NCBI GenBank assembly: GCA_964534625.1
Contig: CAZHRF010000020.1
Span: 1 to 50,438 of the forward strand
DNA from: an uncultured archaeon
GTDB taxonomy: Archaea > Asgardarchaeota > Heimdallarchaeia > Heimdallarchaeales > Heimdallarchaeaceae
DNA: 50,438 bases
Direction of reading: 5' to 3'
The notes beneath the pieces are model-generated. The model was given only the letters and a program-made list of their open reading frames with translations, was not told the DNA's origin and ran no database searches. Below are positions 47,335 to 50,438 of this stretch, one piece after another. A program made the position numbers and the translations under genes. Numbering within the stretch: position 1 is the first letter of the stretch; every line of letters starts with the position of its first letter.

Positions 47335-50300
47335 ATGGTTGTAAAAGTATATTGTGGAAATGATTTTGAAGATTATGAACACGAATGGGATCAATTTTGT
47401 GAGTTAATAGAGAAAATAAAAGAAGAGTATGATGTAAAAAAAGAGAGTGTTTACATATGTGGAAATGTAACCATTAAAAGCAATAAATTGGATGTAATAT
47501 TATTTACCAATAAAGGAATTGCTATTATTGACTTGAAGAACTATAAAGGAAAAGTAATGGGAAAGGAGAATGGGGACTGGGAATTAGAAACAGAGAATGG
47601 AGAAAAAGTAAAGATCCACACAAATGTGTTTGATCAGTTGTCTGGATATAGAAAAAAGTTGTTTGGAACCTTAAAAGGATTAATAAATAAAACATTACCA
47701 GATATAGACGAAAAAAATCTATGGAAAATCAAATGTTGGGGATATTTCCGTGTGGGTAGTTCTTATGACAAAGATCAGTTAATAACATATTCTAATACGT
47801 ATTGGTTTGATATCATAACAAAAGAAAATATATTGGAGAAGCTACGCTTCTTGAAAAATGACTACTATTTAACAAATAAAGTAATAGAAGACACAATAAA
47901 GGTGTTAGGGAGCAAAAACAAGTGTAAAGGATTAACAATTAACGGATTAAACGAATATAAGTATAGAAAAATAAACAAAGAAGAGAGTAGGAAAGCGAGA
48001 AAAGAGAAATTAAAAAAATGGATAAATAGTGAATATAAATCTGACAGTAATGTTATATATTCAAAAGCAACGAGGGAGAAAGTAAGATTTCATCAACTTG
48101 AAGTAATTGATAAAACTGATGATGTGAAGGAAAGAAATTTTTTGGGGTGGGAAACAAGAGAAAAAAAAGGAATAGAGATAATTGAATGGTTAGAAAAAAA
48201 ACCCGAAAAAATTATTTTAATTAAGGGAGAACCAGGATCGGGTAAATCTTCAACAATGAAATATTATTATGAAAGACTGTTAGAAGAATATAAGACAGAT
48301 AAAAACGATAAATTCCCGATTCAAATAGATTTGTCCAATATAGATGCAGAACATAGTATTAATGAGGAATTAGAAGAAAAATATGGTAATATACTAGAGG
48401 AAATAAATGATTATAAAAGTGAGGGAAAAATAGTATTAATTATTGATTCGTGGGATGAATTGCCTCCTAATAAAAGAATAGAAACAGAAAGGTACTTTTC
48501 AAATGCTCTAAAATATGGAAATAAACTAATCGTTTCATCAAGAATATTGAATGAAGATGATTTACCTAAATTCACAAAGTACCAAGATAAAAGAAACAAA
48601 GAAGAAATAAATATTTATGATTATCGAGGAGGAGAGATCTTACCACTTAAAGATAAAGATTTAGACGGATATTTTAAAGCAAGATATGGGAATCTTAAAC
48701 CAGATGAGATTAGAAGAATCAAACATTTAATCACTAAATCAAGAATAAAAACAACTGCATTATGGATGGATCTAGTGATTAGTTTTACACGATATTCCAA
48801 TGAGGAAAACTTTGAAGAAATTAACTTATTAGCACATTGGATAAGAGAATTAATTGAAAGAACAGATAAAATTGAAAATGTAGAAGAAAAACTCGAAGAA
48901 ATAGCTTACAAAACATATGTTGATGAAACATATAAGATAACAAAACAAACAGCTAAGACATTAATTAAATCAGTTTATTTTGGTGATTTAGAAAAACATG
49001 GGTGGATAGTTCCTGCAGGATTTTCAAAGAATGATAGAAAGTACACTTTTGCTCATGAGACCTTAAGAGAATATCTAGCAGCAAGATATATCTGCCATAA
49101 TTGGAAAAGGTTAGAAAATAATTTGTTTGAAAGAACTACAGGAATACTCTCCAATAGAGAATATAACAAATTAATTATTTTAGCTTTAAAAGAAGCAAAA
49201 AGATTAGATTTTGATACTGAAGAGTTCAAATCGCGAATATATCAAATTGCAGGAGAAGATAATTGGTTTAGTGGTGAGAAAATATCTTATGGGAAACTTA
49301 GAGATCCAATATTAGCTCTGAAAATTCACTCTGAATTAGAATTGGAAGAAACAAAAATTATTCAAAAACTCAAAGAACTACTAGTTAAAGTTTACGATTT
49401 AATTACAAATCAAAAGAAATTAAGCAAAGAAAAACAAATAATTTCGAATTGGTTCAACAAAGAAGAGGTTATAGAAACTCTGGCTTCTTCTTTACCTGAT
49501 TTATTTATTGAGAAAATATATCAGCAAAAACCCCATTTTTATCCATCAAGCCTAAATTTAGGAAAAGAAGCAACAGAAAGATTGTTTAAAACTATGATTG
49601 GAAAGTGGCCTGATGATCCATCTATTCTATTGGATGCTTTAATTGATATAAAAAGTTATCAATCTAGTGGATTAACAACTAATAATAAATGGTTACAGGA
49701 TAGTCGTGATATAATTAAATATGTAGAGAACAATCCTGAAATAATGTTAGATAATGATAAAAAGAGAAAATGCAAAAAAGAAACCGTGGAATTTCATTTG
49801 TCAAGTACTTATCTTAGAATTATTGATTATGTAATGGAAATTATAAGGAAGAACGACTTAAATGAATATTCTGCTATTTTGAACAAATGGACAGATTCAG
49901 ACCATGAAATGCTAAAAACTGCAGCTTTTCGATTATTTGAGATAAGTAGAACATATGATAATTACAGTGAAAAATTGTTCTTGAAATTATGTAGAAAATG
50001 GTTAAATAGTGATGATACTGAAAGGAGAAAAACTACCATTCAAAAAATATTCAGGTCAGATGAAAATTTCGTTTTTGATAAAGATAAATTACTCAATGAA
50101 GAACTTGAACAGAGAGATTACGAATATTGGTTGGAAAGTATTAAACTTGAACAGAGCACACAAAAATGTTCATATAATGGAGCGTGGCTGAAAAAAGAAA
50201 GAGAAAAATTGATTAAGTGGTTATGTGAAAAGTACACTTTACGTGAATTAAAGGGAAAACTTCAATTAAAATATAATATACCGCTTTTTAAAAAAATATT

Positions 50301-50438
50301 ACAAAACCACAAAGGTGTTAAAGACATTGAAGAGGCAAAAAATATCTTATTATACATAAGTGTTATAGAGAAAAAATTAAAAGTGTTAACTCAACTAAGA
50401 TCGGTTACACTTTTGAGCACAATATCTTTGGGTGGGAG
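47335..50438 (+). CDS. NERD-type PD-(D/E)XK nuclease fused to a NACHT/STAND NTPase and helical repeats; 3'-partial
   Basis: Own translation from ATG 47335: LDVILFTNKGIAIIDLKNYKG; GEPGSGKS; LIIDSWDE; LIVSSR; YTFAHETLREYLAA. Runs off the window end, so it is absent from the ORF track. Confidence 0.88.
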   Translation, partial: MVVKVYCGNDFEDYEHEWDQFCELIEKIKEEYDVKKESVYICGNVTIKSNKLDVILFTNKGIAIIDLKNYKGKVMGKENGDWELETENGEKVKIHTNVFDQLSGYRKKLFGTLKGLINKTLPDIDEKNLWKIKCWGYFRVGSSYDKDQLITYSNTYWFDIITKENILEKLRFLKNDYYLTNKVIEDTIKVLGSKNKCKGLTINGLNEYKYRKINKEESRKARKEKLKKWINSEYKSDSNVIYSKATREKVRFHQLEVIDKTDDVKERNFLGWETREKKGIEIIEWLEKKPEKIILIKGEPGSGKSSTMKYYYERLLEEYKTDKNDKFPIQIDLSNIDAEHSINEELEEKYGNILEEINDYKSEGKIVLIIDSWDELPPNKRIETERYFSNALKYGNKLIVSSRILNEDDLPKFTKYQDKRNKEEINIYDYRGGEILPLKDKDLDGYFKARYGNLKPDEIRRIKHLITKSRIKTTALWMDLVISFTRYSNEENFEEINLLAHWIRELIERTDKIENVEEKLEEIAYKTYVDETYKITKQTAKTLIKSVYFGDLEKHGWIVPAGFSKNDRKYTFAHETLREYLAARYICHNWKRLENNLFERTTGILSNREYNKLIILALKEAKRLDFDTEEFKSRIYQIAGEDNWFSGEKISYGKLRDPILALKIHSELELEETKIIQKLKELLVKVYDLITNQKKLSKEKQIISNWFNKEEVIETLASSLPDLFIEKIYQQKPHFYPSSLNLGKEATERLFKTMIGKWPDDPSILLDALIDIKSYQSSGLTTNNKWLQDSRDIIKYVENNPEIMLDNDKKRKCKKETVEFHLSSTYLRIIDYVMEIIRKNDLNEYSAILNKWTDSDHEMLKTAAFRLFEISRTYDNYSEKLFLKLCRKWLNSDDTERRKTTIQKIFRSDENFVFDKDKLLNEELEQRDYEYWLESIKLEQSTQKCSYNGAWLKKEREKLIKWLCEKYTLRELKGKLQLKYNIPLFKKILQNHKGVKDIEEAKNILLYISVIEKKLKVLTQLRSVTLLSTISLGG

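What the first reader, a model, noticed from the sequence alone, without database searches (positions are those of the whole stretch)
47335..50438. Unlisted >1030-aa NERD-nuclease-NACHT gene head-to-head with viperin
Seen: an open frame to the window end with an N-terminal PD-(D/E)XK motif, Walker A/B, sensor-1 SSR, the FAHETLREYLAA winged-helix motif and a helical C-terminus. It shares a 144-bp divergent intergenic region with viperin. Known: effector-STAND-sensor is the Avs/NLR-like antiviral architecture. Inference: an NLR-like receptor with a NERD effector co-regulated with viperin, pairing two relatives of eukaryotic innate immunity in a probable Asgard genome.
Basis: partly seen in the sequence, partly recalled or inferred. 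Interest (0 to 1): 0.78.

Follow-up and report, generated by a model that had tools for sequence, protein, structure and literature searches.

The report
Transposon-broken Asgard NLR-like immune gene
The open frame is the first 1,016 codons of a 1,741-codon NLR-like antiviral gene (nuclease, NACHT switch, HEAT-repeat sensor) of a Heimdall-group Asgard archaeon, but a jumping gene has split it, and its position beside viperin is shared by none of its relatives.

Summary
ORF 47335..50436 (+) carries a NERD PD-(D/E)XK domain, NACHT motifs (GEPGSGKS, LIIDSWDE, SSR, FAHETLREYLAA) and a helical tail. It lies 144 bp head-to-head with a true viperin.

The AlphaFold model (pLDDT 86) matches NLRC4, NLRP3 and NOD2 across the NACHT module (Z 15.6), so the NTPase is STAND/NACHT class.

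New points:
- The window is a whole contig, and its last 55 nt are not gene sequence. They are the left end of a multi-copy IS481-like insertion sequence.
- The IS has a 16-bp target duplication at 50368..50383. The remaining 725 codons lie on contig C91.
- Removing the IS restores a 1,741-aa frame, matching relatives of 1,706-1,757 aa. The C-terminal part folds as a HEAT-like solenoid.
- In this assembly the gene is therefore disrupted.

The family is small and patchy (6 of 83 genomes of the class, Heimdall MAGs). Some relatives carry a different N-terminal effector (Schlafen/AlbA_2), and some sit in defence islands.

No relative locus has viperin nearby, so co-regulation as a pair is not supported.

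No described Avs model matches. Effector-STAND-helical sensor proteins, NERD effectors, and Asgard NLRs and viperins are all already described.

Verdict: a new member of a known kind, moderate to low interest.

The parts
47335..50383 (+). 5' part (codons 1-1016 plus 1 nt) of a 1,741-codon NERD-NACHT-HEAT gene. The 3' part is G000:C91:70-2246 (L003/L023).
   Evidence: ORF. 36% identity over 98% of its length to the 1,757-aa P0003. The empty-site join gives 5,226 nt with a single terminal stop.
47335..47919 (+). NERD-type PD-(D/E)XK nuclease module (residues 1-195), with D53 and D66-L-K68.
   Evidence: Pfam NERD E 1.5e-9. PADLOC PDC-M16A matches this N-terminal module only, E 1.5e-13. Catalytic columns are conserved. 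The model pLDDT here is mostly 84-97, falling to 74 at residues 191-195.
48172..49404 (+). NACHT module, NBD-HD1-WHD-HD2 (residues about 280-690). Walker A at 48226-48249, Walker B at 48436-48459, sensor-1 R403 within the VSSR motif at 48532-48543, WHD histidine motif at 49048-49083.
   Evidence: Pfam NPHP3_N and NACHT. Foldseek NLRC4 E 2e-13. VIA Z 15.6 over model residues 218-683. PDB profile hit to the SeAvs7 NTPase, E 5e-6.
49405..50383 (+). First third of the helical sensor (residues about 691-1016).
   Evidence: The model is all-helical from residue 575 onward. It continues on C91 as a HEAT-like solenoid.
50368..50383 (.). 16-bp target-site duplication GAGAAAAAATTAAAAG, repeated at C91:54-69.
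   Evidence: Two other junction pairs in the genome (C21/C27, C40/C74) also have 16-bp duplications.
50384..50438 (+). Left terminal 55 nt of an IS481-like insertion sequence (inverted repeat TGTTAACTCAAC...).
   Evidence: The same termini lie at 9 contig ends. A decayed 1.0-kb copy at C47:3101-4100 encodes HTH_32 plus an rve transposase.
47191..47334 (.). 144-bp A+T-rich divergent intergenic region between viperin and the NLR-like gene.
   Evidence: No promoter test was possible, because only a bacterial sigma-70 scan is offered.
46342..47190 (-). Prokaryotic viperin (pVip): a neighbour, not shown to be a partner.
   Evidence: NF038283 E 5e-84; PADLOC pVip E 2e-81.

Best explanation
This is a single-gene, Avs/NLR-like antiviral receptor of a Heimdall-group Asgard archaeon. 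Intact, it would be 1,741 aa: an N-terminal NERD PD-(D/E)XK nuclease, a short coiled linker, a NACHT NTPase module (NBD-HD1-WHD-HD2), and a roughly 1,050-aa HEAT-like alpha-solenoid sensor.

The mechanism is inferred by analogy with Avs proteins. The solenoid binds a conserved viral protein. This releases the ADP-locked NACHT switch, the protein oligomerises, and the clustered NERD domains cut DNA and abort the infection.

In this genome an IS481-like insertion sequence has landed in the sensor at codon 1016/1017. It made a 16-bp target duplication and broke the assembly into contigs C20 and C91. As assembled, the gene can only give a product of 1,016 residues plus a short IS-encoded tail, lacking two thirds of the sensor. 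It is most likely inactivated.

The viperin next door is an independent defence gene of the same island.

Shown here: the architecture, the catalytic and NTPase motifs, the fold class, the IS insertion and the restored frame, the patchy distribution, the effector swapping, and the defence-island contexts. Inferred: the trigger, the oligomerisation, DNA cleavage and loss of function.
For: **Architecture and motifs**
- Domain matches and conserved motifs.
- The NACHT signature D-[GAS]-h-D-E after Walker B (DSWDE) and the WHD histidine H574 are conserved.

**Fold**
- AF2 pLDDT 86.1.
- Best matches are NLRC4, NLRP3, NOD2 and NAIP, then Avs4 and Avs3.
- VIA Z 15.6 spans the NBD to HD2, above AAA+ initiators at Z about 11.
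- The best PDB profile hit is the SeAvs7 NTPase, E 5e-6.

**Sensor**
- All-alpha, pLDDT 78.
- Resembles the karyopherin/CAND1/PP2A-A class of solenoids and HEAT clusters in the Atlas.

**IS insertion**
- The contig tail and the C91 head are the two ends of one element with imperfect inverted repeats.
- Three junction pairs have 16-bp duplications.
- HTH_32 plus rve transposase.
- The frame is restored to 1,741 aa, against relatives of 1,706-1,757 aa.
- No empty-site allele is present in the assembly.

**Defence role**
- Found in 6 of 83 genomes of the class.
- Relatives carry Schlafen/AlbA_2 or unknown N-termini on the same NACHT-plus-sensor core.
- Relatives sit beside type I R-M plus a TIR protein, and beside an Eco57I-like methylase plus a DEAD/MZB helicase.
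- The window itself holds viperin, a HEPN protein and an AddAB-like pair.
Against: - No experiment exists for any member, and the trigger is unknown.
- No described Avs or bNACHT model matches, so the analogy rests on architecture and fold.
- A metagenome bin cannot show whether an intact allele coexists in the population.
- The inserted IS copy itself is not assembled. Its length and the exact truncated product are inferred from a decayed copy elsewhere.
- Pfam NACHT for this protein alone is 1.2 bits under its cut-off.
Confidence: 0.8

Rival explanations
1. Viperin and the NLR-like gene form a co-regulated two-gene system that shares a bidirectional promoter. In this view the NLR would sense infection and viperin would supply chain-terminator nucleotides, or the reverse.
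For: The two genes are arranged head-to-head, 144 bp apart. Both belong to antiviral families.
Against: - The adjacency is not conserved. G035 has viperin on C70 but the NLR-like gene on C13. G077 and G075 have the gene but no viperin above the cut-off.
- tblastn with the viperin finds nothing in any relative locus with 2-10 kb flanks.
- The viperin loci of G021 and G035 have no NERD/NACHT match within the 1.5 kb fetched on each side.
- Viperins and Avs-type STANDs each work as single genes elsewhere (PMC11291487; 10.64898/2026.01.04.697583).
Confidence: 0.07
2. The gene is intact and functional in the organism. The break would then be an assembly artefact, or the IS-bearing allele a minority variant in a mixed population.
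For: The genome is a 120-contig MAG, 89.8% complete. The frame across the empty site is perfectly preserved with no other lesion in 5,226 nt, so any insertion is recent.
Against: - Both contig ends run into IS termini with a matching 16-bp duplication, exactly as in two other insertion sites.
- No contig carries the empty-site junction.
Confidence: 0.1
3. It is a housekeeping or regulatory STAND NTPase, for example a signalling or transcription-type STAND, and not an immune receptor.
For: Many STAND clades are not defence-related (10.64898/2026.01.04.697583). No functional data exist.
Against: It has a nuclease effector with an intact catalytic triad, effector swapping among relatives, a sparse and patchy distribution, defence-island contexts, and tolerance of IS disruption.
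Confidence: 0.05

Closest known systems
Avs (antiviral STAND) proteins, e.g. SeAvs3, EcAvs4 and SeAvs7 (PDB 8DGC, 8DGF, 9N00; Lee et al. 2026 bioRxiv 10.64898/2026.01.04.697583)
   Same: - Single large polypeptide with an N-terminal nuclease effector, a STAND NTPase and a long helical-repeat sensor.
- Effector swapping on a constant core, and defence-island location.
- The SeAvs7 NTPase is the best PDB sequence hit (E 5e-6).
- Avs4 and Avs3 are fold hits.
- NERD is listed among effector domains in that survey's supplement.
   Different: - No PADLOC Avs model matches.
- Similarity to SeAvs7 is limited to about 100 residues of the P-loop domain. The sensor shows no sequence match.
- The sensor looks HEAT/karyopherin-like, not like the TPR-type sensors of Avs1-4.
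- Known members so far come only from Heimdall-group archaeal MAGs and related metagenome contigs.
- The trigger is unknown.
NACHT-clade NLRs (animal NLRC4, NLRP3, NOD2, NAIP; bacterial bNACHT proteins of Kibby et al. 2023, PMC10294775)
   Same: - The NBD-HD1-WHD-HD2 fold (VIA Z 15.6 to NLRC4 over model residues 218-683).
- The DSWDE acidic pair after Walker B and the WHD histidine.
- Pfam NACHT passes in four family members.
   Different: - The effector is a nuclease, not a CARD/PYD adaptor.
- The sensor is a HEAT-like solenoid, not LRR.
- The sequence profile scores NLRC4 only at E 0.055, weaker than SeAvs7, so no special affinity to eukaryotic NLRs is shown.
- bNACHT HMMs could not be tested by name.
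PADLOC candidate system PDC-M16A
   Same: It shares the N-terminal, roughly 190-residue NERD-like module (E 1.5e-13 for this protein and 1.1e-24 for P0003).
   Different: Only positions 1-187 of a 917-position profile match. The remainder of the protein (NACHT plus sensor) is unrelated.
IS481-family insertion sequences (for the interrupting element)
   Same: About 1.0 kb, a single HTH_32 plus rve DDE transposase, and inverted repeats beginning TGT. The family's features are from my own knowledge of ISfinder.
   Different: The 16-bp target duplication is slightly longer than the 4-15 bp I recall for the family. No intact copy is assembled in this genome.

Membership tests
STAND NTPase, NACHT clade | P-loop NTPase with Walker A GxxxxGK[ST] and Walker B hhhhD followed by an acidic pair (D-[GAS]-h-D-E) | tested here: met
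   GEPGSGKS 298-305 and LIIDSWDE 368-375. G303, K304, D371 and D374 are invariant in the 7 full-length relatives.
STAND NTPase, NACHT clade | Match to the curated NACHT profile (PF05729) above its gathering score | tested here: inconclusive
   This protein scores 25.5 bits against a cut-off of 26.7. A six-frame search of the genome gives 27.9 bits, over the cut-off. Relatives score 30.8, 27.8, 28.9 and 33.4 bits, all over it. NPHP3_N scores 29.8 against a cut-off of 24.8.
STAND NTPase, NACHT clade | NBD followed by a helical domain and a winged-helix domain with a conserved histidine (the STAND-specific module) | tested here: met
   The AF2 model (pLDDT 86) aligns to NLRC4 residues 94-582 at Z 15.6, with 401 residues aligned at rmsd 7.4. 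Foldseek gives E 2e-13. H574 in the FAHE motif is kept in 10/13 aligned sequences.
NERD / PD-(D/E)XK nuclease | Profile match plus the D...(D/E)-x-K catalytic residues | tested here: met
   PF08378 E 1.5e-9, 38.7 bits against a cut-off of 22.1. D53 32/32, D/E66 32/33, K68 34/37. Nuclease activity itself was not tested.
Described Avs types (Avs1-5 in PADLOC; Avs7-21 of Lee et al. 2026) | Match to the type's profile, or sensor homology to that type | tested here: not met
   No Avs model among the PADLOC hits for P0001, P0154 or P0003. The SeAvs7 match covers only the NTPase. Avs8-21 sensors could not be compared because no sequences or models are on hand, so that part remains untested.
Avs-like defence gene (functional class) | Effector-STAND-sensor in one polypeptide, variable effectors, enrichment near defence genes | tested here: met
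   Architecture. A Schlafen/AlbA_2 or other N-terminus sits on the same core. Type I R-M, TIR and methylase/helicase neighbours. Based on a few loci only, with no statistics.
Avs-like defence gene (functional class) | Protection against viruses and activation by a viral protein | not testable with these tools
   Requires experiments.
Viperin-linked two-gene system | Conserved adjacency of the two genes across relatives | tested here: not met
   None of the relative loci holds a viperin. The viperin loci of G021 and G035 have no NERD/NACHT match within the 1.5 kb fetched on each side.
IS481-like insertion sequence | Terminal inverted repeats, target-site duplication, DDE (rve) transposase, multiple copies | tested here: met
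   Inverted repeats TGTTAACTCAAC and TGTTCACTAAAC. 16-bp duplications at three sites. HTH_32 E 5e-8 and rve E 2.8e-11 in the C47 copy. Termini at 9 contig ends.

The most novel reading that the evidence does not exclude
The most novel reading not excluded is this. The Heimdall-restricted NERD/Schlafen-NACHT-HEAT family could be an archaeal NACHT lineage specifically related to the ancestor of eukaryotic NLRs. Its best structural matches are animal NLRC4, NLRP3 and NOD2. Its HEAT/karyopherin-like sensor would recognise an Asgard-virus protein and so give a first handle on virus sensing in the closest archaeal relatives of eukaryotes. My data do not favour a special eukaryotic affinity. The sequence profile prefers bacterial SeAvs7 over NLRC4, and solved NACHT structures in the PDB are mostly animal NLRs.
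Probability: 0.08. Interest if true: 0.7.

Novelty: new member of a known kind. Interest (0 to 1): 0.3.

Why it matters
It adds a small, sequence-distinct family to the large catalogue of prokaryotic STAND/NLR-like antiviral receptors. So far the family is seen only in Heimdall-group MAGs and related metagenome contigs. It shows the same modular logic (swappable effector, NACHT switch, helical sensor) operating in the archaeal group closest to eukaryotes.

It also records a recent IS knock-out of an immune gene, an example of defence-gene turnover.

It corrects the more exciting claim of a viperin-NLR partnership, which relatives do not share. An intact homologue such as P0003 could be a useful entry point for finding what Asgard-virus proteins are sensed. 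The concept itself is already established in bacteria, and Asgard NLRs and viperins are already catalogued.

Tried and rejected
- **The look-up of encoding contigs was closed.** The contexts of P0003 (the closest relative, on a 47.8-kb contig) and of the split pair P0004/P0006 could not be fetched.
- **The search for related loci with the 7-sequence alignment failed** for lack of a conserved stretch. The 4-sequence alignment worked.
- **Viral contigs:** no relative found.
- **PHROGs:** only generic P-loop hits.
- **PDB sequence search with the NERD module alone:** nothing significant, best E 0.35.
- **NCBIfam:** nothing meaningful for the NLR-like gene.
- **Literature search for 'PDC-M16':** no papers.
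- **Cluster look-up:** gave no names or accessions.
- **Casposon or att-type integrative element as the interrupting insert:** considered because of the long 16-bp duplication. Rejected because the decayed full copy encodes an HTH_32 plus rve transposase and is only about 1 kb.
- **Promoter mapping in 47191..47334:** not attempted, because the only scanner is for bacterial sigma-70 promoters.
- **Fold comparison with SeAvs7 (9N00):** it did not appear in the fold-search lists, so the comparison is inconclusive.
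Full report
**1. The observation**

The window is a complete contig (G000:C20) of a 120-contig genome bin, 89.8% complete.

ORF 47335..50436 on the + strand is open for 1,034 codons and runs off the end.
- LDVILF/IIDLK (D53, D66, K68)
- GEPGSGKS 298-305
- LIIDSWDE 368-375
- VSSR 400-403
- FAHETLREYLAA 572-583

Pfam gives NERD (E 1.5e-9) and NPHP3_N (above its cut-off). NACHT scores 25.5 bits, just under its 26.7 cut-off. A six-frame family search of the genome scores the same stretch at 27.9 bits.

The gene on the other strand, 46342..47190, is a viperin by NCBIfam's equivalog model (281.8 bits against a cut-off of 180) and by PADLOC pVip. 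The gap between the two genes is 144 bp.

**2. The gene does not end where the window ends, and it is broken**

A search of 5.8 billion proteins found one near-full-length relative. This is P0003, 1,757 aa, 36% identical over 98% of the query.

Searching P0003 against the own genome found the missing part on contig C91. Bases 63-2234 (+) match P0003 residues 997-1750.

The last 55 nt of the window and the first 53 nt of C91 are not gene sequence. They are the two ends of one repeated element:
- The ends form imperfect inverted repeats, TGTTAACTCAAC... and ...GTTTAGTGAACA.
- The same ends lie at nine contig ends.
- At three independent sites the flanks carry a 16-bp direct duplication. These are C20/C91 (GAGAAAAAATTAAAAG, window 50368..50383), C21/C27 and C40/C74.
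- A decayed 1.0-kb copy at C47:3101-4100 encodes an HTH_32 plus rve (DDE) transposase with two in-frame stops. This is an IS481-like insertion sequence.

Removing the element and one copy of the duplication joins the two parts in frame. The result is a 5,226-nt ORF of 1,741 codons with one terminal stop. That is the size of the relatives (1,706, 1,747 and 1,757 aa).

No contig carries the empty site. As assembled, therefore, the gene is interrupted at codon 1016/1017. Because there is no other lesion, the insertion is probably recent.

**3. What the protein is**

*Residues 1-720.* An AlphaFold2 model built on 37 aligned relatives has mean pLDDT 86.
- Foldseek against the PDB puts NLRC4 first (E 2e-13), then NLRP3, NOD2, NAIP, Avs4 (E 2.7e-10) and Avs3.
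- VIA-align gives Z 15.6 to NLRC4 over model residues 218-683 against chain residues 94-582. That is the whole NBD-HD1-WHD-HD2 module. AAA+ initiators score Z about 11.
- A profile of seven full-length relatives finds the SeAvs7 NTPase as the best solved relative (E 5e-6) and NLRC4 at E 0.055.

The NTPase is therefore STAND, NACHT clade.

*NERD module.* Its catalytic D, D/E and K are almost invariant across more than 30 relatives.

*C-terminal 731 residues (from C91).* The model is all-alpha (pLDDT 78). It resembles karyopherin-beta, CAND1 and PP2A-A solenoids. A language-model search points to HEAT-repeat clusters. Pfam finds nothing in it.

**4. Family, distribution and context**

An exhaustive HMMER search of 1.84 billion representatives found 256 hits.
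- Only about six are full-length relatives, of 1,658-1,826 aa.
- Most of the rest share only the roughly 190-residue NERD-like module. That module is also the only part matching PADLOC's PDC-M16A.
- Some core relatives carry a different N-terminus. P0009 has Schlafen/AlbA_2, and the N-termini of P0011 and P0008 are unknown. This is the effector swapping typical of Avs/NLR-like defence proteins.

In the 83 species genomes of the class, six have a match, counting this one. Named records are 'Candidatus Heimdallarchaeota archaeon' MAGs, which supports the Asgard assignment. Earlier scan notes say the same, but I treat those only as leads.

Neighbours of relatives are not conserved. They do include type I R-M plus a TIR/SEFIR protein, and an Eco57I-like methylase plus a DEAD/MZB helicase. 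The window itself carries viperin, a HEPN protein and an AddAB-like pair.

No relative lies on a viral contig.

**5. Viperin**

The pairing is not conserved.
- G035 has both genes, but on different contigs.
- G077 and G075 have the NLR-like gene and no viperin above the cut-off.
- tblastn with the viperin finds nothing in any relative locus.
- The viperin loci of G021 and G035 show no NERD/NACHT match within the 1.5 kb fetched on each side.

The head-to-head arrangement here is best read as two independent defence genes in one island.

**6. Mechanism**

Shown here: the architecture, the intact nuclease and NTPase motifs, and the NLR-type fold.

Inferred from Avs and NLR work (10.64898/2026.01.04.697583; PDB 8DGC, 8DGF):
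- The solenoid binds a viral protein.
- The NACHT switch opens and the protein oligomerises.
- The clustered NERD domains cleave DNA, giving abortive infection.

The IS-truncated product lacks about 725 sensor residues and is probably inactive. Whether it could be auto-active instead is unknown.

**7. Novelty**

The following are already described:
- Effector-STAND-helical-sensor proteins. A recent survey lists 589 STAND clades and 684 sensor clusters.
- NERD, which appears in that survey's effector list.
- Asgard NLRs and viperins (PMC11291487).

This family matches no described Avs model and is so far seen only in Heimdall-group MAGs and related metagenome contigs. It is therefore a new member of a known kind.

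Noticed in passing
window 50384-50438; G000:C47:3101-4100 (L022); contig ends of C21, C27, C40, C65, C74, C91, C96, C106: A multi-copy IS481-like element (HTH_32 plus rve) makes unusually long 16-bp target duplications, each beginning with G at the three sites seen. It is a major cause of contig breaks in this bin. Only a decayed copy with two in-frame stops is assembled.
   Followed up: partly
P0004 (446 aa) and P0006 (1,296 aa), both on one 9,277-base JGI contig: Together these cover residues 2-456 and 478-1021 onward of the family and sum to 1,742 aa. This is a second family member that appears split into two ORFs, by frameshift, stop or insertion. Their context could not be fetched.
   Followed up: no
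G021:C277:2010-3311 (L019) and G021:C182: A sister-genus genome has viperin fragments with in-frame TGA/TAA stops beside an intact viperin on C173. These look like decaying viperin copies.
   Followed up: no
G035:C70:3124-3909 (L014): The viperin match lies in an open frame of 559 aa, about twice viperin length. It may be a fusion, for example viperin-kinase.
   Followed up: no
window 38866-39273 (+): A 135-aa IS110-family transposase fragment (Transposase_20, E 1.8e-23) lies between the AddAB-like pair and a 1,199-aa beta-helix/NosD protein.
   Followed up: no
L023 (G000:C91) 4947-6707 (-): A 586-aa protein with a C-terminal RING-finger-like motif (zf-RING_2 E 4.7e-5, below the cut-off) lies downstream of the 3' part of the NLR-like gene.
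   Followed up: no
G000:C13:60070-60582 (-) and G000:C1:57362-57661 (+): Two further NACHT-like matches occur in the same genome, in open frames of 1,370 and 424 aa. They may be additional STAND genes.
   Followed up: no
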